Origin: Paraspadella gotoi
Lineage: Eukaryota > Animalia > Chaetognatha
Reading direction: 5' to 3'
Length of the DNA: 38,404 bases
Assembly: GCA_051294375.1 (NCBI GenBank)
Contig: JBJCIZ010000026.1
Span: forward strand, 54,966-93,369
Shown one piece after another: positions 1,475 to 30,052 of the stretch. How positions within the stretch are numbered: position 1 is the first letter of the stretch; the number at the start of each line of letters is the position of its first letter. The notes beneath the pieces were generated by a model. That model worked only from the letters and a program-made list of their open reading frames with translations, was not told where the DNA came from and searched no databases. The position numbers and the translations under genes were made by a program.

Positions 1475-2549
1475 CTCTCTCTTCTCTCTCTCTCTTCTTC
1501 TTCTCTCTCTCGTTCTTTCTCTGAAAAGGGTTAAATATTTAAATTTCAAGAGCGGACAAATTTGGGCAGAATTCAAAAAAATCTGCACAGAGAAATAGGC
1601 GGTGTACCATACCGCCATTTTCAACGAGTTTTGCAGAAATCGTGAATCAATGACCAGTGGAGGATTGTTTTTGTTTTGTCGCCTTCAAAAAATTAAGAGA
1701 AGATGTTTTCGACGTTGTTCGAGGATTTTACGTCTTTTGTCTGAAGGAATGACTATAGAAGAAGCAAGAGAGAAGAAGAAAGAGAGAGAGAGAGGAGGAG
1801 AGAGAGCAAGAGGAGAGAAGGGAGAGTAGTTAGGGACCACGGAGTGTCGAGAATGAGAGGAGAGATCGAGTTAAGGAGATGTACGAGGTAGATGTAGAAA
1901 GAAGTAGTTGGAAGAGTAGAGAGCACCGAACACTTCATTTGGTTTTCCGAACCTGCGATGGAACTGCAACGTCAGATTGTCAAGAGAGAAGAGGAGGCAC
2001 AGGTTATGAAAGTCAAGAGAGCAAGAGCGAAGTAGAGGAAAGGGAGAAGAGAGTGAGAAGGTAGGAGGGTAGAGGGTGCAGCGACGGATATGGTACGGTA
2101 CATTGAGAGAGCGAAGTCGGAATCGGTATGCGTGACGATCGTACTGATGAGAATGACTGAAGGGGAGAGATTGTGCCGATAGAAAAGGATCGTGAAGAGG
2201 AAAGGAAGAAATGTCTAAAGGGAAAAGAATAAAAAAGGGACGAAAATGGAAGCAGAATTAAATTAAAAGGAAAATATGCTGATATAATACAAGAAGTGTG
2301 AAGTGAAAACAGGAAGTGACCAGATACAAACAAAAAACGGCGCTAATAATATTATGTAAATAAATTAGACGATCAATGAACAAAAGGTCGTTTTAAAGCG
2401 ACGAGACATGAACCTGATGCGCGGCTATGACTGGTGGACAAACGAACGCAATTAGGATCATCCTTTTGTCTCTTTTATTATAGGTATGAGGCTTAACAAG
2501 TTAAAAAAAAGAGGAAAAAAAAAACTGCTAAAAGCTCAAATAAAAGAAA
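668..2549. repeat. Inverted repeat pair (~668-1030 and ~2100-2549)
   Basis: For example TTTAATTCTGCTTCCATTTTCGTCCCTTTTTTATTC (~908-943) is reverse-complemented at ~2228-2263. Confidence 0.8.
1064..1985 (+). repeat. Direct duplicate (empty-site copy) of 3090-4700
   Basis: Colinear from TAAGGCCGAAAATGCG to ..CATTTGGTTT(T)CCG..GGAACT. It lacks the 3640-4407 insert. Confidence 0.85.
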
Positions 2550-3172
2550 NNNNNNNNNNNNNNNNNNNNNNNNNGTGATGGGTGAAATTTCATATATTTT
2601 CTTCTCCCCAAAGACGAACAAAGAAAGAAAATTGCATAATTTTGGAGGCAGAGACAAAAAGAGTAGAAGAGATGAGAGGAGGAGAGAGGGAGAGGAGAGG
2701 GAGAGAGCATGAATTTAAATAATGAAGGATAATAAACTGGAAAAAATGTATAAGAAAAGATAGAAAAGAAAGATGGAGATTGTAAGAAGATAATAAACGA
2801 GATGAGAGATTCTTTATCAAAAAGCTTGTACAGAAGAATGGAGGCCTTATTGTATAATAAAGCCTGTCCAAAGTCGGATAGCTTATTTATTTAATTGAAT
2901 TGATAATTATTGTACTTGTTGTTACCGATTTGATGGAGAGGAAGGACATAAAGTGGCTTGAGGCTTGAGGTCACAAATAACAGAAAGTTTTAAAGTACAT
3001 TGTACAATATTGTAAATTCTTTAGACAGGATAAGAAAAAGAGAAGGAAAAAGAGAGGGGAAAGAAAAGAAAAAAGATAGGGATAAGCTTTAAGGGCGAAA
3101 ATGCGTGATGGCTCGTATGTCAGTACGTGCGCTGAAATTAAAATAGTCGAGAGATGGAAAAGCGTGGAAACA

Positions 3173-3251: not shown

Positions 3252-3688
3252 AGAGAGAGGATAAGAGATGAGGGCCCAAGTAGTTATGATGAAACGGAGA
3301 AAAATGAAAAAAGATGTTAAAGGGGAAAAGAGACGACGGAGAAATAAATGAAAAAATCGGATAAAAAAAATATATGAAAATGGATTGGGAAAAAGATGGA
3401 TACGATAAACATTTGTTTTATCTTTAGCGCCTGCGCTAGGAGAAATGCGCGTTAGTTAATCTCTCTATCTCTCTCTCTCTCTCCTCCTTCTCTCTCTCTC
3501 TCTCTCTCTCTTCTCTCCTCTCTCTTCTCTCTCTCTCTCTTCTTTCTCTGAAAAGGAGTTTGGTTAATAATTAAATTTCAAAGAGCGGACAATATTTGGG
3601 CAGAATTCAAAAAATCTGCACTATGGAAATAGGCGGTGTCTTGGTGTCCTATTCACCACAGATAAATTTAAAAGCTGTTGCTTTCGCA

Positions 3689-3758
3689 GCGCCTCGGTGG
3701 CTCAGTGGACTAATGCCACCATCCCAATGTGCGTCCCTGGTCTCCGGAGCCCTGAGGT
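3689..3758 (+). promoter_or_regulatory. tRNA-derived (Gly-CCC-like) Pol III internal promoter in LTR1
   Basis: A box TGGCTCAGTGG at 3698-3708. TCCCAA anticodon-like loop. The B box is indel-damaged (GGTCTCCGGAGCCC). GCCTC/GAGGT can form an acceptor-like pairing. Confidence 0.7.
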
Positions 3759-3762
3759 TTTG

Positions 3763-3844
3763 TCATGTAGAAAGTGGGGTGAGACCGGGTAAACCGCCTT
3801 AGGCATGGGCCTACTGCCATGATCCAAGCTCTGGACTACAATGA
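3763..3844 (+). ncRNA. Putative P5-type twister ribozyme (LTR1 copy, noisy)
   Basis: P5 TGTAG/CTACA; TAA..CCGCC; P3 TAGGC-ATGG-GCCTA; P4 with loop TCC(A)AAGC closed by TCTGG. Predicted cut T3790/A3791. Confidence 0.6.
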
Positions 3845-3914
3845 ACATGCTGTCATCGCTGTCGCCACGAGGTGACACGCTGCGGGTGTGGCGCCTGTAA
3901 ACCAGCCTCTTCAA

Positions 3915-3950
3915 TGGTGAGGCCCGAGCGTGATCCGAACACGCAAAACC
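3915..3950 (+). promoter_or_regulatory. Primer-binding site complementary to tRNA-Trp 3' end (extended)
   Basis: TGGTGAGGCCCGAGCGTGATCCGAACACGCAAAACC aligns by eye to the reverse complement of the eukaryotic tRNA-Trp 3' end (TGGTGACCCCGACGTGATTTGAACACGCAACC, recalled from memory). Confidence 0.8.
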
Positions 3951-4100
3951 CGCGCATTGATAATACTCATTCTGCCCTTGATAAGGGTTTTTGAGCTACA
4001 CCAGCTGCCAAACTCCAAAGCAAGGCCACCAGAATTGGAAGAGAGCGTTTCAGCGGAGAGACATGCGCCTTCATCCCCCTGCTTCGGTACTCTCATATGC

Positions 4101-4118
4101 GAAGAGTCCTGGGGGCGG
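4101..4118 (+). promoter_or_regulatory. Polypurine tract-like sequence
   Basis: GAAGAGTCCTGGGGGCGG lies immediately upstream of LTR2. A CTGGGGG-type tract is typical of Gypsy PPTs. Confidence 0.65.
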
Positions 4119-4174
4119 CTGGTTCTGGTGGTCCTATCACCACAGATTAAATTAAAAGCTGGTGTGCTTTCGCA

Positions 4175-4243
4175 GCGCCTCGGTGGCTCAGTGGACTAAT
4201 GCACCATCCCAATGTGGCGTCCCTGGTTCGAGCCCTTGAGGTT
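4175..4243 (+). promoter_or_regulatory. tRNA-derived (Gly-CCC-like) Pol III internal promoter in LTR2
   Basis: A box TGGCTCAGTGG at 4184-4194 and canonical B box GGTTCGAGCCC at 4225-4235, with tRNA-like spacing. Not a complete cloverleaf. Confidence 0.8.
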
Positions 4244-4244
4244 G

Positions 4245-4328
4245 TCATGTAGAAAGTGGGATGGACCGGGTAACCGCCTGTAGGGCATGGGCCTTACTAG
4301 CCGAAGATCAAAGCTCTGGACTACATGA
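4245..4328 (+). ncRNA. Putative P5-type twister ribozyme (LTR2 copy)
   Basis: P5 TCATGTAG/CTACATGA (8 bp); GTGG-GA-TGG; ACCGGG-TAA-CC-GCC; P3 GTAGGGC/GCCTTAC; the L4 AAGC is followed by TCTGG. Predicted cut T4271/A4272. Confidence 0.65.
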
Positions 4329-5220
4329 ACATTGCCTGTTCTCGCTGTTCGCCCGAACGGTGACACCGCTGCGGGTGTATGGCGCCCTTGTAAAACCAGC
4401 CTCTTCAGGTGTACCAATTACCGCCATTTTGCAACGATTTTGCAGAAAGAATAGAAATCGGTGAATCAATGCACGCAGCGAGATTTTTTTTCCTTGCAAA
4501 AACTAACGAAAATGTTTTTCACTTTCAGATTTTAGTTCTTTGTCTCGATAGGATATGACCCTAAGGAGAGAGAGAAGAGAGACGAGTAAGGAGATGAGAG
4601 AGAGGAGAGATGAGAGAAGAGTTGCGAAGTTAGAGAGACCGAACCTCATTTGGTTTCCGTAACCTCGATGGAAACTCAAGTCAATGTCAGATGAGAGATG
4701 AGAGATGCTTATCCCTATCTTTTTTCTTTTCTTTCCCCTCTCTTTTCCTTCTCTTTTTTCTTATCCTGTCTAAGAATTACAATATTGTACAATGTACTTT
4801 AAACTTTCTGTTATTTGTGACCTCAAGCCTCAAGCCACTTTATGTCCTTCCTCTCCATCAAATCGGTACAACAAGTACAATAATTATCAATTCAATTAAT
4901 AAATAAGCTATCCGACTTTGGACAGGCTTTATTATACTAAGGCCTCCATTCTTCTTACAAGCTTTTTGATAAAGAATCTCTCATTCTCGTTTATTATCTT
5001 CTTACAATCTACATCTTTCTTTTCTATCTTTTCTTATACATTTTTCCCAGTTTATCCTTCATTATTTAAATTCATGCTCTCTCTCTCTCTCTCTCTCCTT
5101 CTCTCTTCACTCTTTTGTCTCTCGCCTCCAAAAATGCATTTTTCTTTCGTCTTTGGGGAGAAAATATATGAAAATTCACTCAAAATTACTTAGCATATGC
5201 CTGAAAAGAAAGAGAGAGAC

Positions 5221-6989: not shown

Positions 6990-8687
6990 ACGCAACTACG
7001 ACGACGACAAAACGACGATGACGACGACGACGACGAACAGAGAGAACGACGACAATCGTCGCGTTAATGATTAACTCGTTCCGGGTTTCGTTTTTCGTTC
7101 CGTGCCGCAACCGTAACGTCGTCGTCTCTCGTCGTCGTCCGTCGTCGCAGTTACTTAAAAATAGCTCCGTATTTCCTGTCCCGTCGTAATTAATTTGGCG
7201 TATGTTGTTTTTTTGGTCTCTTTGTTTATTATATATAATTCTTTTGTTTTGAGTAATCCCATTTATCATATTTTCAAAAATAAAAAAAAGCTCGAAAAAT
7301 AGAGAGAAAAAAAGAAAGAAGATAAAAAGAAAGACAACGATGTCAAGAGACAGAAAGAACGACAGACAGGACAGAGCAAACATTAACTTCAATTCGGGCT
7401 GTGGGAACTCTCACTTCTTCCCATTTCCAAAAAGCTTCCTTCAATCTTCCGGGAAAAAAATCAAATGTATCCTTTTTTTTTCATAAAAGTTTAAAGCGTC
7501 ATAAAATTTTGAGATTCTCGTTTTTAATGTCGATTCTTTTTCAGTTTTGAAAGTTTAAAAGCAAAAAGGGATTTCGCGTTTTTGGGACATTTCGAATCTG
7601 GTTGAGGGAGTTATCTGGAAAATGTTTCTTTTTTTTTTCTTTTTTTCTTCTTTTCTTTAATTTCTTTTTTGCTTTCTTCTCTCTCTTTCTTTTTTTTGTT
7701 TTTTTTCTTTCTTCTTTCTTTTCTTTCTTCTTTCTTTCTTTCTCTCTTCTTCTCTCTATTCTTTTCTTTCGTTCTTTTCACTTTCTTCTTTCTCTTTTTT
7801 CCTCTTTCTCAAACCAGAAAATGAAAAACATAAAAAACACAAACAAAAAAAGCTCATTTACAACAAAACTTTTTTTTTCGTTTTCCTTAAATATTATTTT
7901 CTGTAACCTTACCCCCGGAAAATAATTCTTCCGCCAAATTATCCCGGGAACGGATCGTTCCCTTCAGTTCGAGTTGATGAATTTTACCACCAAAGAATCT
8001 TCAAGCTTACTCACCTAAAATATCACCTCATCCTGGATCAGTATCTCTGGATGATATCAAATAGCACTTTAAGTAGCGCCAAAAATTTGAACTAAACATT
8101 TGAATAAAGTAACACGCAAGAGAAGTATCATTTAAAGGAAAAACTCATGGTATAATCTTTTTTTAAAATTCTTTCATTAAATTGTAACCACCAATTTCGA
8201 ATGTTTGATTATTTAAACGTATCCCAATTTTTAATTTTTCCAGATAAAATCAAAGTGTTAGTGTTATAATTAAGATTAAGGGATTTAGGTTAGGTTTTGT
8301 AGTTAGGAATTACATTAAATGATTAGAGGTAGGGATTATGGTTAGAGACTAAGAGTTAGTTATTAAGGGTTCCCTGTGGTTAAAGATTATGTTATGATTT
8401 TTTGATTTCGTGTGGGGATAAGGTTATACGATTTCTGTATGGATTTTGTTAGATATTCCGGTTATGACTAAGTTCAGGCGATTAGGGGCGGAACAAAAAT
8501 GGGGCTCTTTTTGGAAAAGAGAGCTCCAAAGCTAAAAACTACCCCACCACGTGCGAAAATATCAACCTAAGGAATTTGTGATTTTATTTTTTTGGGAAGA
8601 GAGAAAGAATAAATGAATGACTCGGCGAATCTGAATCAGACACGTGGGAGGTGAGAGAAGAGAGAGAGAGAGAGAGAGAAGGAGGAG

Positions 8688-8730
<43 letters not shown>

Positions 8731-9127
8731 TAGGTGCTTACTCTGTAAAACTGATGAAGCTCACTATGAATAGAGTGAGAGAGCGTGAGAAAGTAGAGAC
8801 AAGAGAGAGGAAGGGAAAACTATTGAAAAATAAACTTTCTCTGCCATTTTAAGGATGAATAGCCTGTTATTTCAAATGTCAAAGTTGAGGGTGAGAAGAG
8901 AGAGAGTAGAGAGAGAGAGAGAGGAGAGAGGAAGAGAGAAGAGAAGAGAGGAGAGAGAGGAGAGAGAGGGGCAGAGAGAGAGTATGTGAGAGAGAGAGAA
9001 TGAAAAGTAGAAAGTGAGAAGAGAGGAGAGAAAGAATGAAAGTCAGAAATGAAAACGAGAGAGTATGAAAGAGAGAAAAGACGAATAGCAGTACAGAGAA
9101 GAGACGAGGAGAGAGAGAGCGAGGAGA

Positions 9128-9165
<38 letters not shown>

Positions 9166-12100
9166 ATAACCTCACGCGATCCGACCGCGTTTTGGACGAC
9201 CCAAAGTTCTCGAGTCACGTGATTTCGCATTATCGCGTGAAAAGCGCCGACGGAATCACGAGTGAAAGAAGGGGGACGGGGGCGCAGGGGTCGTGAGGCT
9301 TGAATGTGAATTCGACAGTGGAAAGTTTCGGAGGCCGAGATGTAACGCCGGTATGAAAGGACGGCCGTGAGTGTGGATGGATGAATCCTGTGACATGGCC
9401 ACGTTTGAGGTACGCAGGAGGTAAATGCAAGTACGTTGGCAATGTGAACGACATATATTATCATCTATCTATTCATCATTGTTCTTTATCTCTCTTCTCC
9501 GTCATCATCATCTCCTCATCATAATCATGCTATAATCATCTTTAATTCAATTATCATCGTCGTCGTCATAACACAAATACTTAACTTCTATCCATCACAT
9601 CATAGTGCTAAACCTCTGGTTCGACGTAGTCCGCTAATCATCATATCATTCAATCAATAAAAAACAACGACGACAACAAACAACAACACAACAACAACCA
9701 TCGTTAATGGCAAAAATCGCGTTTCGAGTTCGGGATTAAGATCGATGGAATCAGTTTTGGTTCCGCGGTGGGGGTGATATTTTGGGCAGGCAGCGGTGAG
9801 TGAGCTTTCGGGGTCAGACCGCGCCATTTGAGACGGCGAAGCCTAATAAAAAAATTTTTCCCTTTTTAGACCAAGATGCTGTGGGTCAAAGCGAATATCG
9901 GTGGCTGAAACGAATAAAAAAATGGAGGGAATTCTGGAGTCAGACGCGAGATCTTTGGCCCAGCTATTTTACCAAGCGCCCGTTATCTGATTAAATTCGC
10001 GATAGACATGAGGTTGGAGATTCCCCTCCAGTTAGGTTATTAGGTTAGAGTTACGGATTTAGGGTAAGGGCAATCTTGGTATAAAATTAAGGTTATTAAT
10101 GAAATGTTTATTATATAGAAATAAGTTTAAATATTCTGTAAAATAATTTATCTCACAGATTTAAAACAAAAATGGGCCCCGTTCCGCAAATAGATCCAAA
10201 CTTTTATTTTTAGAGGAGAAATCGGGACAGAGTTTCTCCGAAAGTGGCCGTGGCCCTTATGGTGTCGACTGGGGTCCGAGGGGCCCGCTCGACCGCGAGC
10301 GTCACTAGCGACCCCACCCTTGGTTCAAACAGTTGGAAAGACATGGAGGGGAACGGGGGGAGGTGGGAGATAGGGCTGGGGGATTCCTGTGAAACAATTG
10401 ACCACTCCAAATTGTGTGTATGTCCGTTTTACCGTTTATAAATATTGCATTTTTTCTTTAAAAATAATATTCTGTATGACTGAGCCCAGAAGACATGTCT
10501 GGGCTACATTAGTCCAAAGAAATCCGTGTCAAACCAAAACCCTGTTTTCTCTCTAAAAATAAATATTGTATATCATTTTATTTCTAATTTTGTTAGAATT
10601 TACCGTCCGCGGGCATTATTATAATATTGGGCTAGTGCTGACTCATGTAAAATGTGTGAAATTTTTAAATCATTTGTTGTCAGATTTTCTGTTTTTTTTT
10701 TTTTTTAGATTTTGATGTGTCATGAGTTTTTTGCATTTAGAAAAATTATAAAACTAATATTCTTAAACTTGAAATTAAATTTTTTTGACATAATTAGCCA
10801 GACATGTTTCGGCTCAGTCATACAGAATATTTATTTTAAAGAAAAAAATGCAATATTTATAAACGTAACGAATACACAATTTGAGTGTCATATTGTTCAC
10901 GAATCCCCCAGCCTCTCCTCCCACCTCCCCCCTTCCCCTCCATTCTTTTCCAACTGTTTAAAGTGGATCGCTAGTGACGCTCGCGTCGACGGCCCCTCGA
11001 CCCCATCGACCCATAGGGCCACGCCCACTTCGAGAAACTCTGTCCCGATTTCTCCTCTAAAAATAAAATTTGGATCTATTTGCGGAAACCGCCCCATTTT
11101 TGTTTAAAATCTGTGAGATAAATTTTTTACCAGAATATTTAACCTTAATTTTATATTAATAAACATTTCTTAATAACCTTAATTTTATACCAAATTGCCC
11201 TTACCCTAATCCGTAACTCTAACCTAATACCTAACTGGAATCTCCAACCTCATGTCTATTGCGAATTTAATCAGAAACGGGGCGCTTTGGTAAAATATGG
11301 CCAAAGATCTCGCGTCTGACTCCAGATTCCCTCCATTTTTTTTTTATTCGTTCAGCCACCGAATTCGCTTTTGACCCAAACTCTTTGGGTCTAAAAAGGG
11401 AAAATTTTTTTTTAGGCTTCGCCGTCTCAAATGCGCGTCTGACCCCCGAAACTCACCCACCGCTGCCACCAAATATCACCCACCACCGGAACCCAAAACG
11501 ATGCCATCGATCTTAATCCGACTCGAAACGCGATTTGCCATTACGATGGTTGTTGTTGTTGTTGTTGTTGTCGTCGTTGTTTTTATTGATGATGATGATG
11601 ATGATTACGACTACGTCAACGAGGTTGACTATGATGATGTCAAAGATATTTGTGATGATGACGACGACGATGATAATGAATTAAAGATGATTATGATGAT
11701 TATGATGATGAGGATGATGATGACGAAGAAGAAGATAAAGACAATGATGATAGATAATGATAATATAGTCGTTCACATTGCAACGTACTGCATTACCTCC
11801 TCGTCTCACTGGCATTCACAGGCATTCACCATCCACCTCACGGCCGTCCTTTCATACCGGCGTTCACATCTCGGCCTCCGAAACCATTTCACTGTCGAAT
11901 TCACATCAAGCCTCACGCACCCCTGCCCCCCGTCCCCCTTTTTCACTCGTGATTCCGTCGGCGCTTTTCACCGATAATGCGAAATCACGTGACCTCGAGA
12001 ACTTTGGGTCTCCAAAACGCGGCACGTCGCGTGAGGGTTATCGACTCTCTCCTCTCTCCTCCTCATCTCTCTCTCTCTCTCTCTCTCTCCTCTCTCTCTG

Positions 12101-12471
12101 CTCTCTCTCTCTCTGTCTCTATCTCTCTTTTCTCTCTTTCATACTCTCTCTTTTCATTTCTGACTTTCATTCTTTCTCTCTCTCTCTCACTTTCTCTTTC
12201 ATTCTCTCTCTCTCACATACTCTCTCTCTCCTCCCCTCTCTCTCTCTCTCTCCTCTCTTCTCTCTCTCTCTCTCTCTTCTCTCTCCTCTCTCTCTACTCT
12301 CTCTCTCTCTCCCCTCAACTTTGACATTTGAAAAACAGGCTATTCATCCTAAAATGGCAAGAAAGTTTATTTTTCAAAAGTTTTTCCCTTCCCTCTCTCT
12401 GTCTCTACTTCTCACGCTCTCTCACTCTATTCCATAGTGAGCTTCATCGTTTTACAGAGTAAGCACCCTAA

Positions 12472-12547
<76 letters not shown>

Positions 12548-13426
12548 ACCTCCCCGTGTCTGAATTCAGATTCGCCGAGTCATCATTATTCCTTTTCTCT
12601 CTTCCCAAAAAAATAAAATCACCAAATTCCGTTAGGTGATATTTTCGGACGTGGTGGGTAGTTTTTAGCTTTGGGCTCTCTTTTCCAAAAGAGCCCCATT
12701 TTTGTTCCCCCTAATCCCTGAACTTAGTCATAACCGGAATATCTAACAAAAATCCATTACAAAATCTATAACCTTATCCCCACAACGAAATCAAAAAATC
12801 ATAACATAATCTTTAACCCAAACCCTTATAACTAAACTCTAGTCTCTAACCATAATCCCTACCTCTAATCATTAATGTAATTCCTAACCTACAAACCTAA
12901 CCTAATCCCTTATCTAATTTATAACACTAACCTTGATTTTATCTGAAAATTAAAAATTGATACGTTAAATAATCAAACATTCGAAATTGTTTTACCAATT
13001 TAATGAAAGAATTTTTAAAAAAAGATTATACCATGAGTTTTTCCTTAAATGATACTTTCTTCGGTTTACTTTTTCAAATTGTTAGTTCAAATTTTTGGCC
13101 TACTATAAAGTGCTATTTGATATCATCCAGAGATACTGATCCAGTGATGAGGTGAATATTTTAGGTGAGTAAAGCTGAAGATTCTTTGGTGTAAAGTTCA
13201 TCAACTCGAACTGAAGGGAACGATCCGTTCCGGATAATTTGGCGGGAAATTATTTTCCGGGGGTAAGGTTACAGAAAATAATATTTGAAGGAAAAACGAA
13301 AAAAAAAGTTTTGTTGTAATGAGTTTTTTGTTTGTGTTTTTTATGTTTTTCATTTTGGTTTGAGAAAGAGAAAAAGAGAAAGAGAAAGTGAAAAAGAACG
13401 AAAGAAAGAATAGAAGAAGAAAAGAG

Positions 13427-13461
<35 letters not shown>

Positions 13462-14005
13462 AAAAAAGCAAAAAAGAAAGAGAGAAAGAAAGCAAAAAAA
13501 GAAATTAAGAAAAGAAGAAAAAAAGAAAAAAAAAAGAAACATTTTCCAGCTAACTCCCTCAACCAGATTCGAATTCCCAAAACTGCGAATCCCTTTTTTG
13601 CTTTTTAAAACTTCAACTGAAAAGAATCGACATAAAAAAACGAGAATCTCAAAATTTTATGACGCTTTAAACTTTTATGAAAAAAAAAAAGGGTACATTT
13701 TGGATTTTTTTCCGGAAGATTGAAGAAGCTTTGGAAATATGGAGAAGTGAGAGTTCCCGCCCGAATTGGAAGTTAATGTTTGTCTGTCTGTCTGTCGTTC
13801 TTTCTGTCTCTCTGACATCTGTGTCTTTCTTTTTATCTTTCTTTCTTTTTTTCTCTCTATTTTTCGAGTTTTTTTTATTTTGAAAATAATGATAAATGGA
13901 TTACATCAAAACAAAAGAATTATATATTAATAAACAAAAGACAAAAAAACAACATACGCCAAAATTAATTACGACCGAAGGAATACGGAGCTATTTTTAG
14001 TAACT

Positions 14006-14041
<36 letters not shown>

Positions 14042-14133
14042 TTACGGTTGCGACGACCGAAAAACGAAACCCGGAAACCGATTAATCATTAACGCGACGA
14101 TGTCGTCGTTCTCTTCGTCGTCGTCGTCGTCGT
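6990..14133. repeat. Giant inverted duplication, arms ~6990-10530 and ~10780-14133
   Basis: Continuous reverse-complement colinearity over ~3.4 kb; for example ORFs 7602(+) and 13250(-) both end NIIFCNLTPGK. Differences are mostly indels. Confidence 0.92.
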
Positions 14134-24520: not shown

Positions 24521-25512
24521 CTCTCGCTCTCTGTTGGGAGATTCGAAGGGAAAATTATAATTTAGAGATAAAATGAATTGATTTTGTTATGTTTATGTTA
24601 TGAAACTGGAACAACCTTCATTCATTTAATAAAGAATTTAGTGGTTAGGACCTTCACAAGAAAAAAAATGCAAGATAAAATTAATATACTTTAACAATAT
24701 AATGAAATATGTTTAAGAGACTTTCACTACTTTTTCACCTTCCCTTTTTAAACAGTACTTTCTTCAAAACTTCACCAACTAACATACGAACAGTCCGACG
24801 ATCAAATAAAAACCCGTTTTAGTTTAATTCGGAAATGCGTCGTCGGGATTCGGATGTAATCCATTTTCATTCTCCACTAATCACGCGAATCAAATTTCGT
24901 TTCCACGAAGATTGAAAAAGAAAGAGAAAAAAAAAGAGAAAAAAAAAGAAAAATGTTGATGTTGCGTAAATCATCAAAACGCAATTAATCTTCGGGACTT
25001 TGAAAGGACACGCGTCTCAAAGATAAAAGAAAAAGAAAACAAGAACCGTCAAGAGCCGTGACTGTCTTTCGTGAACGCATTTTAAGATAATCACAATCAC
25101 TGACTGCACAAGTGTGACTGTATAAACGAGAAGCATCACTTTCTGTTAAGTATCAAATCAAGCATAATAACCAAATGATACCCAAAAAATGCCGTATTTA
25201 CTTTCTGATCACCTGTTCTGTATGATCACGCGTCTACTGTCGTATGAAACATGTACAAGATGCCTTGAATGATACCATACATACTTAAACTGACTCAGCC
25301 TTTTTTTAAATTATGTCGCGTAAATTTTTTGTTCGTGTGATTATCTGACTGCACCTGTAGAAAATGTTTATTATTTTCTACGCCTCGAGGGTCGCGCGTT
25401 CGATTCGTCGGAAGAATGACGTAAATGTTGAATAAATGACGAATAAATCGTGAATAAATCGTGCATAAGTTTATTATTAAAAATAATAAGTCAATGGCAA
25501 AATCAATGTCGT

Positions 25513-25746
25513 TATGGTGGACTAAAATCCACCAACCGTTCATCAGCGGCCATTGGTGCCAGAGGCAAGTCATTGGCCTCCCAACCCAAAGGTCCGGGGT
25601 TCTAGCCCGGTGGTCGTCTGGCAGTTAAGAGGGACGGGGCGCTTAACCCGCCTGTAACATGGTGTTACAGCCTGATCCGAAGCTCAGGGACTGCTTATAT
25701 TGAACGGTTCTGTCATGAACACATATCAATAATTACTGTCTCTTCA
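25513..25746 (+). mobile_element. Solo LTR of a second tRNA/twister TRIM family
   Basis: TCGT on both sides (25509-25512, 25747-25750). Starts with hairpin TGGTGGA-CTAAAA-TCCACCA and ends CTCTTCA like family 1. tRNA-like segment at 25546-25617 with a CTCCCAA loop and B box GGTTCTAGCCC (25598-25608). No PBS follows. Confidence 0.75.
25620..25695 (+). ncRNA. Putative P5-type twister ribozyme (family 2, cleanest copy)
   Basis: P5 GCAGTT/GACTGC; GAGG-GA-CGG; TAA-CCC-GC; P3 CTGTAACA/TGTTACAG; P4 CCTGA/TCAGG with loop TCCGAAGC. T1 pseudoknot CCG:CGG and T2 GC:GC. Predicted cut T25644/A25645. Confidence 0.75.
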
Positions 25747-26445
25747 TCGTATTATAAATTGGTGTAGAAAATCCTTGGATTCCGTAAAAACTACGGTGCC
25801 ATAAAGTCGATCTTTTCCAGAGAAACGATTATGATCGAAAAGACTGGTCAAAAGAGGCCAACGAAATGACCAGGGAAAATGACCGGACCGGAGGTCACAA
25901 AATCTTTCAGCGCCAGTATGAGACATAGTATGCACAAAAAAAGGTCTTAAGGTATCAAATATATTAATTCGAAACGTGAGTGAGGCAGATAGACGGACCG
26001 ACCGACCGAAAAATAACTTATCTCCCCTCCAGTCCCAAGGGTTAGGGAATATGGATAGGAAAAAGGATAGGAAAAAGGATAGGAATAAGGAAGGATAGCG
26101 AAAACAATCGCTAACCAAGCTACTTTGGCGAGCGTAAGCTGCTTGCGACGAAATCTCCCCCTACCATCGATCGGGATGCATCGGAAAAGCCAAGAGAGGC
26201 AAACCATTTGGTCTATCCATTTCCTGCGATGATATATTATATATATATATATAATATATATGTATATATAATATATATATAATATATATATATTATATAT
26301 ATATATATATAAATAATGGCTAATGTTTGACTAGCTGAATTGTTGCGGTCCGCGTGAAGAAAAAAAGGCGTAAGTCAAGATAACGAAAAAAAGAAATTTG
26401 TTTGATCTATTTCTTTTTGTTTTCCTGGATTAAATAATTGAATGG

Positions 26446-26489: not shown

Positions 26490-27060
26490 GAGAATATCCC
26501 GGAATTCTCAACGACTCCTGTCCTAGTAGAGCACTTTTTTTTGTGTTGACCACCAGGCCGTTTTCGTCGAGGGCCCTAAACACTTTTTCTAAGTCTTGAA
26601 GGTGCTCCTCGGAGAGGAAGATGCCACCAATATGTCATCTAAAATAGACAAAAGTGTGAGGGATATCTACCAGTATCTGGTCCATCAGCCGCTGAAAATC
26701 CTGACCGGCATTTTTACAGCCGAAAGGACAGCGGGGGGAACACATACAGAACCGAAGGTTGTTATAGGCCGTTTTTTTTTCACATTCCTCCGGGTTTACA
26801 GGGATTATGGGTGAATATCCGCCTTAGCAAGTCGATCTTCGAAAAAGATCGTCTTGCCTTCCAACTGGGAGTGAAATCGTTGAGAAGTTTGACCGGGTAA
26901 CGATCGCGATGGTTTGATAGCGTTTAGGCGGCGTAGTCCCGCAACATCGCCATCCTCCGTCGGGTTTGGAGACGAACGTGTAGCGGGGAGGAACCACATC
27001 AGCTTTCCTCACCGCTTGGCAATGCCCAAGGAAACCATCTTTTCCAATTCGGTTGGGCGA
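26490..27060 (-). pseudogene. Gypsy reverse transcriptase domain (frameshifted)
   Basis: Stitched across frameshifts: ELEKMVSLGIAKR, SPLHxVSKPDGGWRCCG-DYRRLNAI, DRYPV, SQLEGKTIFSKIDL, PFGxKNAGQDFQRLMDQIL, FVYLDDILVASS (~26634-26649), EEHLQDLEKVFRALDENGLVVN. Confidence 0.93.
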
Positions 27061-27299
27061 CCGCTAACTTCTCTGGGTCGAGCCGCCGTGCTCGTGATGG
27101 CAGGGTCGACCTTCTGTAGGTATTGAATAGTCACGCATGGCGTGGCTCCTTCAACTCGAATGTTGAGTGGAGTAGAGAGGGGAAAGATTCTAACAGTTTT
27201 AAGTAAGCGCTCTCCCTTTCTATCGACGAAGTGAACGTGGGCGGCGGTTTCCTTGATGTCGACGCCGCCTATCGTCGAGTAGTACTGGAATCTATAAGG

Positions 27300-27570
27300 G
27301 GCCGTCTCGATGGTTTGGAGCCAGAAAATTGTCGGCGCAGGAAGTCCGCGCGAGGATGAAATGTTTACGTCAACCACGACGAAACGGATATCAAATTCTC
27401 TGTTTTCCCAATTTCACACTTTCGATCACATAGTTCCATAGCACTCTATTCGACCGACCGTTGGCGGCCTGGAGCTTCATTTGAAGGGTCCGGGCCGCGG
27501 CGTCGTTGCTCTGGCGAAGGTGGAACGATAGAAAGTATGCCTCTCCGTCTACCTAACCATTTAGTTCTGT
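27300..27570 (-). pseudogene. Retropepsin-like aspartic protease (frameshifted)
   Basis: Stitched motifs WLVDG-A..SIVPP, MKLQAANGRSIECYG, FVVVDV..IL-ADFLR are characteristic of Gypsy proteases. Confidence 0.85.
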
Positions 27571-27699
27571 CCACCTGGCGCTCGAATGAAGATCCCAAAA
27601 AAAAATCCGCTTTTGAAAACCGCCCGTGGGGTGGGGGGGATTTTTAAATTTGAAATCCAGAGGGGACGGCGTTCACACACTGCGACGCCCACCTTTTTG

Positions 27700-28800
27700 G
27701 CCATTCCCTCTTTTCCCTTTTCACTTTGTTGAATCTGGCACAACCAGCTCAACAACTTCCACGCCTCGTCGCGAATTTGACGTGTTTAAAGCCCGCACAA
27801 GCGTCGGTTACTTAGATTTCATTTTTTCCTTGAGCGCTGGATTCGGGCGCTTTTGTTGTTTTGAGGCCTTTCTGACGTTTGTCGACCGGCGTTGACGGCG
27901 TTCTCAACCGTCGGAATCTGATTCGTCGTCGTCTTGTTGCCTGTGACGACGTTGCTAATTAGGGAATCGAAGTCTGTCTTAGCTTAAGCGGTGCCGTCGT
28001 TCCGTAGTAGCGGTCCTGCCATAATTTGGGAGAGTTGAATACGCCGATAAGTCCGTCTTGCTTTACCATCCAAGCTGTCCGGGCGGACGTCTCTCGCAGG
28101 CTCTCTGAGGATTTTTTCTTTTCCTCATGTCGTCAGAGTCAACGTTTTTGTTTCTCTTCGACAGTCTCGCCCAATATTTTCGGGTTTATTTCCGTCGACG
28201 GGTCGAGATGATCGAGAAGCGTCGCTGCTTGTTGGCGCCGGGTCATTCCATATTCTCGTCGGAGATAACTGATGACATCCGGCCCATGTCTCCTCGTTTG
28301 CTTCGCCAAAGAGGACTGGTTAAATTGTCGGATCGACGTTCACGCTGATTTGGCCTCCCAGTATGCGCAATTTAGGCTTAGGCGCCGTGATGCTTGCCCG
28401 TGTGTAAGCGGATTCGATCCGCTGATCCATCACTTAGATCTTATGGCTGAATCAAAAGTCGGGCGAGATCCGGCTTTCGATTTGGAGACGCGGTTCGAGG
28501 CGGGCGAGTTGCAAGCAGCGAGGGCTAGCACGATGTTCTTCGTTTTCAATCCGCGTAAGTCTCTGTTTCGACTCGCCGCCGGTCGCCATGTGCGGCCGTC
28601 CTCAAAGTTTTGTTCGTTCGGAGTTTTGATATATAACGTCGGGGGGCGTTCGGTGAAGATTGGCAGAGGTGGAAAATTCGAGAGCGAGCTCCTCTGCCAA
28701 TCGAACTGGAAACTGGGAGCGTCACTGCTTCATTGCTGGGATCGTCGACGTTTCGTTGTGCTGAGCGAAGGCGGAGATCTAAGGTCGACCCGCTCATATT
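27700..28800 (-). pseudogene. gag-like ORF remnant with CHCC zinc knuckle
   Basis: Stitched segments RIESAYTRASIT.., FGEANEETW..VISYLRREYGMTRRQQAATLLD, and C-FK-H-VKFxDEAWK-C-xxG-C at ~27738-27800 (C-x2-H-x9-C-x3-C, the CsRn1-type motif). Confidence 0.7.
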
Positions 28801-28968
28801 GTTTCTGGGCTTTCCGTCGTGTCGCCGTGGGGAGTGTAAAAAAGGAAAAAGCAAGCGTGAGCGGATTGGGCTAATCAAGCCTTAACTTTTGATTCTCTAC
28901 CCAAATCTTACCCTGGAAAAGGGTAATTAATCCGTTGAACTTCCCCGCGAAAGTTGGCCTTGTTCGTT

Positions 28969-28982
28969 CGCCGGTTTCACCA
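28969..28982 (-). promoter_or_regulatory. Candidate PBS of the Gypsy element (degenerate tRNA-Trp type)
   Basis: The minus strand reads ..CACACA|TGGTGAAACCGGCG, versus the Trp PBS TGGTGACCCCGACG. It lies upstream of gag and follows a CA end. Confidence 0.5.
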
Positions 28983-30052
28983 TGTGTGGCCAATGTGGCC
29001 TGAGAATACCTACAAACGTTAACGAGGTCACATACAACAGCCGGGTTCACATGACTAAGATGTTGACATGAAAGAATATAATTTTCCAGAGTGGCGACAT
29101 TGCGGGAAAATGGGATCCGAGATTCGAATTGTATTTAAATATCAATTGATTGGTTTAATTTTGATTGAGCAGAATAATTCATGAGTTTTTGCACAGAGTT
29201 AATGTATTGGCTACATTATTTATCGAGTAATAAAAACGAAGTTAATATCATGAGTGTTCATGATTAAGCAGGAAAAACGCAGACTGATCAATCTCAGTCA
29301 AACAAATCAATAAAGAACAGTCAGTTGAAATTTGAATAACAAAGGTTTTGGAATAGATGACCATCTTCAGTGGAACAGAGAAACAAAAGAATTGTCAGGT
29401 TTCAGTTTAGATTCAGTGGCCACACGTAATATGCATTTGAATGATACGACCGTATTATACAAGTTTGAATAACTCTCCTCTACTCTGACTCTCTCTCTCT
29501 CTCTATCAACCCAATGACTCACCACTTCTAAGCGCCCCATATGTTGACACATAATAAGGAATTAAAGACAGCCACGACGACGACGACGACGACGACGGAA
29601 CGACTTGAATGATGAGATGATGACGCGAGAAAAAACGTTGCCAATCATAAAGATATTGATGGCAACGACGACGATGACGACGACGACGATGATTGCTGAC
29701 GATGAAAAAGGTCAAATTATCAGTGGTCATTTCTCCAAGGTTGAATCAAGTCACCGTTTACCTCATCCAGCGTCAAAGCACTTGTATGTTCTCGTAATGG
29801 AGAATTGGAAAATTACGTCATGAATCCCTTTGTCCTAGTTGATTCGTTTTGTCTTCCTTTAACTATTAATTCATACGCGCCTGAAGATCATTCCTGATTG
29901 TTATTATTTATCGAATTATTTAATTATTTAATATTATTAAAGAAAATATAGAAAAATTAAAAAATCGTATGCTAAATACCTTTAAAAAATTTCCATTCCA
30001 ATTTTTTTGTCAAGTTTTCCCTTTTTTCCGCTTTTCCCAATTTTTAAATGGC

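What the first reader, a model, noticed from the sequence alone, without database searches (positions are those of the whole stretch)
3640..4407. Candidate new retrozyme class: a mini LTR element whose LTRs fuse a tRNA-type Pol III promoter to a twister ribozyme
Seen: LTR-PBS-PPT-LTR layout with a target duplication and no coding capacity. Each LTR has A and B boxes followed within ~10 nt by a fold with twister hallmarks (GA-NNN, TAA, GC, P3, and a P4 loop T-NNN-AAGC). Established: plant LTR retrozymes carry hammerheads in their LTRs and make circular RNAs; Cassandra, Helenus and Ajax TRIMs carry small-RNA-derived Pol III promoters; the transposon-linked twisters I know of are associated with non-LTR elements. 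I do not know of a described TRIM that combines a tRNA promoter with a twister. Inference: Pol III starts at ~3689, and self-cleavage at 3790/3791 and 4271/4272 releases a ~480-nt unit-length RNA containing PBS and PPT. With 5'-OH and 2',3'-cyclic phosphate ends it could be circularised by RtcB and reverse-transcribed by a Gypsy helper.
Basis: partly seen in the sequence, partly recalled or inferred. Interest (0 to 1): 0.93.

Follow-up and report, generated by a model that had tools for sequence, protein, structure and literature searches.

The report
Mini LTR retrotransposon with twister ribozyme
This is a small, protein-less, multi-copy jumping gene whose two end-repeats each carry a tRNA look-alike (a likely promoter) directly followed by an unusual twister-type RNA fold, which is predicted to cut itself mainly when two copies pair and would thereby release an RNA that could be closed into a circle; cutting and circles are untested.

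Summary
Observation confirmed and extended. 3639-4407 is a non-coding LTR-PBS-PPT-LTR insertion: an empty paralogous site lies at 1601-1604, the duplication is most likely 4 bp, the PBS fits tRNA-Trp, and short-read contigs show it is abundant and that LTR differences are mostly read errors. Each LTR has tRNA A/B boxes, then a P5-permuted twister-like fold. A second, divergent solo LTR (25513-25746), found blind by a structural descriptor (0 of 600 shuffled windows hit), has the same layout with compensatory changes in T1 and P4. Both families lack a cis P1 (a palindromic 6-mer instead) and have a 3-bp bulged P2, so Rfam misses them; dimer-dependent cleavage is inferred. It meets the sequence definition of Helenus and probably works like a plant LTR retrozyme, but is not a hammerhead retrozyme. 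Two published wasp Helenus LTRs carry an unremarked hammerhead at the same place. Ten literature searches found no twister-bearing LTR element. The scan's notes hold no such element; unchecked notes report similar palindrome-armed twisters in Penelope-like elements. Cleavage, Pol III use and circles are untested; an unverified internal T5 run argues against simple Pol III read-through.

The parts
3635..3638 (.). left target-site duplication (GGTG)
   Evidence: single copy in the empty site
3639..3913 (+). 5' LTR of family A (first two bases uncertain; ends in CA)
3691..3759 (+). tRNA-like module of 5' LTR: A box 3698-3708, B box garbled by read errors
3761..3847 (+). twister-like fold of 5' LTR (noisy copy); predicted cut between 3790 and 3791
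   Evidence: fold inferred from the read majority
3915..3935 (+). primer-binding site, best fit tRNA-Trp
   Evidence: 2 substitutions, 2 insertions against the 19-nt motif; only such match in the window
3988..3992 (+). internal T5 run, a possible Pol III terminator; not covered by short-read contigs, so unverified
4111..4119 (+). short G-rich polypurine-tract candidate
4120..4407 (+). 3' LTR of family A
4177..4242 (+). tRNA-like module of 3' LTR: 7-bp acceptor-like stem, A box 4184-4194, B box 4225-4235, T stem mostly lost
   Evidence: stem read by eye
4243..4331 (+). twister-like fold of 3' LTR, P5 permutation; predicted cut between 4271 and 4272
   Evidence: X5 contig of depth 6123 covers 4257-4332 with 0 substitutions, 7 gap letters; for the reference layout
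4265..4270 (+). 6-nt linker in place of P1, self-complementary core; predicted to pair between two ribozymes
4408..4411 (.). right target-site duplication (GGTG)
1601..1604 (.). empty target site in a paralogous copy of the flanks
25513..25746 (+). solo LTR of a second, divergent family (B), flanked by TCGT at 25509-25512 and 25747-25750, same 3' end motif as family A
25546..25617 (+). tRNA-like module of family B: A box from 25554, B box 25598-25608
   Evidence: (Rfam tRNA 14.4 bits, E 3.2, below threshold)
25620..25695 (+). twister-like fold of family B; palindromic linker 25638-25643; predicted cut between 25644 and 25645

Best explanation
This is a non-coding, Helenus-type miniature LTR retrotransposon whose LTRs carry a tRNA-like module followed by a circularly permuted twister variant, and it likely works as a twister-based LTR retrozyme: it is probably transcribed from the tRNA boxes, predicted to be cut at both LTRs when the two ribozymes pair, and would then be copied from a circularised unit RNA by a Gypsy-type helper. 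Shown: the anatomy, the insertion, the abundance, the conserved fold in two families. Inferred: (1) Pol III starts near 3691; (2) because the 6-nt palindrome cannot form P1 within one ribozyme, the two LTR ribozymes of one transcript swap halves and build P1 between them, as dimeric hammerheads do; (3) cuts at 3790/3791 and 4271/4272 free a roughly 470-480-nt RNA with PBS and PPT but no terminal repeat; (4) a host tRNA ligase closes it, and the circle, holding a single P1-less ribozyme, resists re-cutting; (5) tRNA-Trp-primed reverse transcription around the circle rebuilds two LTRs, and a Gypsy integrase makes the 4-bp duplication.
For: Empty site and 4-bp duplication; PBS like tRNA-Trp, the primer listed for a Gypsy element and a Helenus family in PMC10886601 Fig. 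S2. Read-majority family A and window family B both show GA+T1', UAA, GC, P3, 5-bp P4, U-NNN-AAGC loop and a closing P5; T1 changes on both sides (CCA/UGG versus CCG/CGG), P4 has an A-U to U-A swap, P5 differs in sequence yet pairs. Family A's P3 base equals that of S. mansoni twisters (PMC8501958 Table 1). The descriptor recovers 19 of 20 Rfam-confirmed phage twisters, hits 0 of 20,000 shuffled LTRs and 0 of 600 block-shuffled windows, and its single hit in the window lies 3 nt behind a tRNA-like module. Both linkers differ in sequence, have no self-fold, and self-dimerise at about -8 kcal/mol. Precedent: axolotl hammerheads with one base pair capped by a palindromic tetraloop cut much better as dimers and are circularised by RtcB (PMC7229834 passages); plant LTR retrozymes lose the R repeat and use circles (PMC4918200 passages). 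Two wasp Helenus LTRs hold a type III hammerhead at the same position (read by eye).
Against: No Rfam twister hit for either family and my model from 37 phage twisters gave nothing significant (family B ranked 2 of 7 at E 4.2; family A not hit). P2 has 3 nt on the 5' side, against 4 in the Rfam model and 7 of 7 S. mansoni rows, and the pair closing L4 is A-U rather than G-C; activity of such a variant is unknown. The minimum-energy fold of family B pairs the T1'/linker region with P2/T2 instead (z -1.5), and family A has a competing short hairpin over the cut site (by eye). A T5 run at 3988-3992 could stop Pol III before the 3' LTR. Only two families were compared, one through contig majorities. 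The descriptor was written after seeing family A, so only the family B hit is a blind test.
Confidence: 0.58

Rival explanations
1. The ribozyme is active but only trims ends: it replaces the Pol III terminator, forming the 3' end in the 3' LTR, while enough RNA stays uncut at the 5' LTR to keep a terminal repeat, so the element is copied as an ordinary linear TRIM RNA with no circle.
For: No T4+ run follows the tRNA module in family B or in LTR3, whereas many bivalve and wasp Helenus LTRs have one there (seen by eye, not counted; fish ones do not). Missing P1 and short P2 would give slow, partial cleavage; P1 is dispensable but cleavage without it is inefficient (PMC8501958 section 17; PMC6154101 passage).
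Against: Does not explain why two unrelated 6-mers are both palindromic; the same ribozyme in both LTRs should cut both.
Confidence: 0.18
2. The fold is twister-derived but no longer catalytic; it is kept as a structural signal (for example RNA dimerisation or packaging by the helper's Gag), and the element replicates like any Helenus.
For: Both families share the non-canonical P1 and P2; covariance models reject them; competing folds exist; palindromic hexamers serve as dimerisation signals in retroviruses (recalled, not from a call).
Against: The catalytic positions (G of GA, U-A-A, AAGC) and both pseudoknots are kept in two families whose stems have diverged; a pure dimer signal would not need them.
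Confidence: 0.17
3. Same retrozyme cycle, but transcription is by Pol II from the AT-rich U3 or by read-through from host genes, and the tRNA boxes are a relic of a captured SINE.
For: AT-rich TATA-like stretch at about 3661-3672; internal T5 run; Helenus Pol III activity is itself unvalidated (PMC10886601 section 4.1); a plant retrozyme LTR has promoter activity of unstated type in the passages seen.
Against: A and B boxes and a 7-bp acceptor-like stem are kept in both families; an upstream AT-rich element also fits Pol III genes (recalled).
Confidence: 0.05
4. The twister resemblance is chance or a product of noisy long-read sequence.
For: Neither LTR copy as written fits the descriptor or Rfam.
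Against: Short-read contigs from two studies restore the helices; an independent second family fits; 0 of 600 shuffled windows hit.
Confidence: 0.02

Closest known systems
Helenus (TRIMp3), Kojima 2024, PMC10886601
   Same: Short non-coding LTR-PBS-PPT-LTR element, tRNA-like A/B boxes in each LTR, 4-bp duplication as in animal Helenus, solo LTRs, about 770 bp (range given 311-1263), tRNA 3'-end PBS shared with Gypsy.
   Different: No ribozyme is described for Helenus (word found only in a reference). No family among the animal, plant and first fungal sequences I read (supplement parts 1, 5-9) resembles this one; parts 2-4 were only searched by short motifs.
Helenus-2_SyJa and Helenus-2_SyUm (gall wasps; PMC10886601 Data S1)
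   Same: tRNA-like module followed by a self-cleaving motif inside a 277-bp LTR; tRNA-Trp PBS; 4-bp duplication.
   Different: The motif is a type III hammerhead (my reading by eye; the paper does not mention it), not a twister; no sequence likeness seen.
Plant LTR retrozymes (Cervera 2016, PMC4918200)
   Same: Ribozyme in both LTRs, non-coding interior, PBS and PPT, 4-bp duplication, proposed Gypsy helper and circular intermediate.
   Different: Type III hammerhead, tRNA-Met PBS, 1-1.5 kb, no tRNA-type promoter described in the passages seen, plants; circles shown there, not here.
Type-P5 twister ribozyme (Rfam RF02684)
   Same: Order of elements, GA+T1', UAA, GC, P4 with U-NNN-AAGC loop, double pseudoknot.
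   Different: Model has an 8-bp P1 hairpin, a 4-bp P2 and a G-C pair closing L4; here a 6-nt palindrome, a 3-bp bulged P2, an A-U pair, plus P3 and a closed P5.
T-variant twisters of Perere-3 (S. mansoni, PMC8501958)
   Same: Twister with weak or missing P1 on a retroelement; same P3 base sequence as family A.
   Different: P1-type order, at the 5' end of an autonomous non-LTR element; no LTR, PBS or tRNA module.
Sm-alpha SINE-like hammerhead elements and animal non-LTR retrozymes (PMC6765202, PMC7229834)
   Same: Pol III promoter followed by a ribozyme (Sm-alpha); palindrome-capped helix and dimer-enhanced cleavage (axolotl).
   Different: Type I hammerheads, tandem repeats, no LTR, PBS or PPT.

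Membership tests
TRIM / Helenus | Two LTRs, under about 1.3 kb, non-coding | tested here: met
   (769 bp; longest ATG ORF 61 aa)
TRIM / Helenus | PBS complementary to a tRNA 3' end just behind the 5' LTR | tested here: met
   best match to tRNA-Trp motif, 4 edits in noisy sequence, 1 nt after the LTR
TRIM / Helenus | PPT before the 3' LTR | tested here: inconclusive
   short G-rich tract 4111-4119; similar short tracts occur in wasp Helenus (by eye)
TRIM / Helenus | tRNA-like sequence with A and B boxes in the LTR | tested here: met
   Rfam tRNA only sub-threshold for family B; ARAGORN none
TRIM / Helenus | 4-bp target-site duplication (animal Helenus) | tested here: met
   GGTG with empty site; TCGT around the solo LTR; 2- or 5-bp readings of the first site cannot be fully excluded in noisy sequence
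TRIM / Helenus | TG...CA LTR ends | tested here: inconclusive
   3' CA present in all 3 LTRs; 5' end reads TC/TG (family A) or TA (family B); TA starts occur in several wasp Helenus
TRIMp3 | Transcription by RNA polymerase III | not testable with these tools
   needs RNA end mapping or inhibitor tests
LTR retrozyme (as defined in plants) | Hammerhead ribozyme (type III) in both LTRs | tested here: not met
   no hammerhead by Rfam; the motif is twister-like
LTR retrozyme (as defined in plants) | LTR, PBS, PPT, 4-bp duplication, no ORF | tested here: met
LTR retrozyme (as defined in plants) | Self-cleavage and accumulation of unit-length circular RNA | not testable with these tools
   needs bench work or RNA reads
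Twister ribozyme, type P5 | Conserved core: UAA, GA, GC, U-NNN-AAGC in P5 order | tested here: met
Twister ribozyme, type P5 | Pseudoknots T1 (3 bp) and T2 (2 bp), stem P4 | tested here: met
   complementary in both families with changes on both sides in T1 and P4
Twister ribozyme, type P5 | 4-bp P2 | tested here: not met
   3 nt on the 5' side, one bulged base on the 3' side, in both families
Twister ribozyme, type P5 | P1 hairpin in cis | tested here: not met
   6-nt linker, no monomer fold, self-dimerises
Twister ribozyme, type P5 | Rfam RF02684 score above gathering threshold | tested here: not met
   20 of 20 phage controls pass
Twister ribozyme, type P5 | Site-specific self-cleavage at U/A | not testable with these tools
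   bench assay needed

The most novel reading that the evidence does not exclude
Animals harbour an unrecognised group of Pol III-driven LTR retrozymes, hidden among Helenus TRIMs, whose ribozyme slot is interchangeable (a twister here, a type III hammerhead in gall wasps); here the twister is a natural half-swapping dimer that fires only in the two-LTR precursor and is switched off in the single-ribozyme circle.
Probability: 0.4. Interest if true: 0.88.

Novelty: new variant of a known kind. Interest (0 to 1): 0.76.

Why it matters
If it cleaves, it would extend LTR retrozymes from plants to what looks like an animal genome and from hammerheads to twisters, give genomic twisters a second concrete role besides trimming non-LTR elements, and supply a natural counterpart of the engineered twister-plus-tRNA-ligase route to circular RNA. 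The dimer-gated twister variant, invisible to Rfam, would also mean that ribozyme censuses in animal repeats undercount. Each step is testable with a 90-nt transcript and a northern blot.

Tried and rejected
No whole genome is held for this window, so no genome-wide alignment of copies was possible. Rfam: 0 hits at gathering over the window, no twister at E up to 10 on 3500-4600 or 25480-25800. ARAGORN: 0 genes. Own covariance model from 37 of 44 filtered phage twisters (near-duplicates left out): not significant; it is biased by the patterns used to collect its members. Pattern scans for relatives: viral contigs 0 and 6 loci, metagenomes 5 loci, prokaryote genomes 0; all 11 loci look like chance matches without the helices. 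Sequencing-run search: 8 DNA runs of one organism, no RNA holder listed; this says nothing on expression. A GC-rich stretch at 26.5-29 kb was tried as a possible helper: 0 Pfam families for 3 ORFs; three other ORFs there were not scanned. Idea that published Helenus families hide twisters: none seen by eye in supplement parts 1, 5-9, and short loop motifs gave no twister context in the whole file. Searches of the scan's earlier notes by sequence and place found nothing related.

Full report
Setting. The window is repeat-rich, gapped, (GA)n-laden sequence with long-read-type indel noise; that it is an animal genome is my inference. No whole genome is held.

The element. Two direct repeats, 3639-3913 and about 4120-4407, align at 86%, with 3 substitutions and 39 gap columns under gap-cheap scoring. 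The flanks recur uninterrupted at 1062-1826; the junction there carries GGTG once, while the element is bracketed by GGTG on both sides. One contig of run X6 also joins 3620 to 4419. One base after the 5' LTR is a stretch matching the complement of the tRNA-Trp 3' end given in Fig. S2 of PMC10886601, the only match within 4 edits in the window. A short G-rich tract precedes the 3' LTR; there is no ORF above 61 aa. In 4 of 4 runs laid (2 studies) the element is covered far more deeply than its flank: in X6 about 2,000 over 4025-4117 against about 10 on the flank; the tool warns that depth is no copy number, so I take this only as 'abundant, probably hundreds of copies'. A single deep contig over 4016-4147 suggests homogeneous, young copies (inference).

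tRNA module. A box at 3698 and 4184, B box at 4225; a 7-bp acceptor-like stem encloses them (by eye; the read majority has A at 4182, which improves it), the T stem is mostly lost. ARAGORN finds nothing.

The fold. Rfam finds no twister, and the two copies as written do not fit my descriptor. Short-read contigs resolve the noise: an X5 contig of depth 6,123 spans 4257-4332 with 0 substitutions and 7 gap letters, and another spans 4237-4275 with no difference. Read by hand against the twister layout (PMC8501958 section 17; Rfam P5 consensus), the majority version has a 10-bp P5, the GA plus T1' strand, UAA, GC, a P3 whose base equals that of S. mansoni twisters, a 5-bp P4 and the loop U-CCA-AAGC, whose CCA pairs with the UGG behind GA. 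Two departures: only 6 nt lie between T1' and UAA, so no P1 hairpin can form, and P2 has 3 nt on its 5' side.

A blind test. I wrote a descriptor (core motifs, Watson-Crick T1, 4-bp P4, two P2 pairs, no P1 required). It recovers 19 of 20 phage loci that Rfam calls Twister-P5 (20 of 20; the 20 were chosen from 90 pattern hits), hits 0 of 20,000 shuffled LTRs and 0 of 600 block-shuffled windows, and has one hit in the real window, at 25633-25683, which blastn had missed. That hit lies 3 nt behind a second tRNA-like module (A and B boxes; sub-threshold Rfam tRNA, E 3.2) in a 234-bp unit that starts with the same short hairpin, ends in the same CTCTTCA and is flanked by TCGT on both sides: a solo LTR of a second family. 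Against family A it shows changes on both sides of T1 (CCG/CGG) and P4, an 8-bp P3 and a different but pairing P5. It shares both departures: a 3-nt P2 strand facing a 4-nt strand with one unpaired base, and a 6-nt linker. The linkers differ (ACCGGG, GGCGCT) but both have a Watson-Crick palindromic core, no monomer fold, and self-dimer energies near -8 kcal/mol; two such cores by chance would be about 1 in 256 (my estimate, after the fact). So the departures look conserved, not decayed. Against: Rfam still finds no twister there, my covariance model gives it only E 4.2, and its lowest-energy fold contains P5, P3 and P4 but mispairs the T1'/P2 region.

Mechanism. Shown: anatomy, insertion, abundance, conserved fold. 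Inferred: Pol III transcription from the 5' LTR; half-swapping between the two LTR ribozymes to build P1 from the palindromes; release of a unit RNA without terminal repeat; ligation to a circle that holds one P1-less ribozyme; tRNA-Trp-primed copying by a Gypsy helper. Precedents: dimer-enhanced hammerheads with a palindromic tetraloop and RtcB ligation (PMC7229834, passages); the circle model for plant retrozymes (PMC4918200, PMC5680766, PMC7761336, passages); Gypsy dependence argued for animal Helenus (PMC10886601 section 3.6). Open problem: a T5 run at 3988-3992, in a stretch no contig covered, could end a Pol III transcript early.

Known kinds. By sequence it meets the Helenus definition (PMC10886601: main text parts 1-4 of 6 read; supplement parts 1 and 5-11 of 11 read; parts 2-4 only searched). 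That paper mentions no ribozyme outside a reference. Yet Helenus-2_SyJa and -2_SyUm LTRs contain, behind the B box, a complete type III hammerhead with complementary loops (my reading by eye; not run through a tool), and they too use a tRNA-Trp PBS. It fails the plant retrozyme definition on the ribozyme class, and the canonical P5 twister on P1, P2 and Rfam score; it likely works like both. Pol III plus hammerhead is known from Schistosoma SINE-like repeats (PMC6765202, passages).

Prior description. Ten full-text searches (twister with retrozyme, LTR, non-autonomous, SINE, Repbase, palindrome/dimer; Helenus; retrozyme with polymerase III or insect) listed no twister-bearing LTR element; most hits were seen as listings only. 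A 2026 preprint still defines LTR retrozymes by type III hammerheads, mainly in plants (10.64898/2026.07.22.740005, passages); PMC13570524, PMC13565253, PMC9695139 and PMC6154101 were seen as passages and add no such case. The library lacks most subscription papers; Repbase and the original twister survey with its supplements were not seen and may bear on this. The scan's earlier notes hold no such element; unchecked notes on other genomes describe palindrome-armed P5 twisters in Naiad Penelope-like elements, seen after I had noted the palindrome; if right, they hint at a source for this ribozyme, but they are not evidence.

Verdict. Real feature; new variant of a known kind; interest 0.76. 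Approximate odds: anatomy and twister ancestry 0.93, cleavage 0.72, dimer gating 0.55, circular intermediate 0.55.

Noticed in passing
window 25513-25746: Solo LTR of a second tRNA-plus-twister family, outside the given coordinates; became the main supporting evidence.
   Followed up: yes
PMC10886601 Data S1, Helenus-2_SyJa-LTR and Helenus-2_SyUm-LTR: A complete type III hammerhead with 12-nt complementary loops sits behind the tRNA module; the paper does not mention it. These look like animal LTR retrozymes in their own right.
   Followed up: partly
window 2579-3087 and 4707-5182; 667-997 and 2164-2547: The TRIM sits inside a larger element with about 500-bp inverted arms (91% alike); a second, more diverged copy of that element holds the empty site.
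   Followed up: no
window 7021-10523 and 10779-14133: A 3.5-kb inverted duplication at 88% identity, possibly a long-read fold-back artefact or a foldback element.
   Followed up: no
window 26500-29000: GC-rich stretch that looks like a degraded retroelement ORF on the minus strand; 0 Pfam hits for 3 ORFs.
   Followed up: partly
window 3936-3948: The likeness to tRNA-Trp seems to run on past the usual 18 nt into the T arm (comparison from memory, not from a call).
   Followed up: no
L006-L095: 44 distinct P5-order twister candidates in phage contigs by my filter, of 20 loci tested 20 confirmed by Rfam; several also carry P3.
   Followed up: partly
PMC10886601 Data S1, Ajax LTRs: Both Ajax LTRs contain the same 8-letter string as the cut-site region here, but no twister loop or pseudoknot partner was visible; probably chance.
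   Followed up: no
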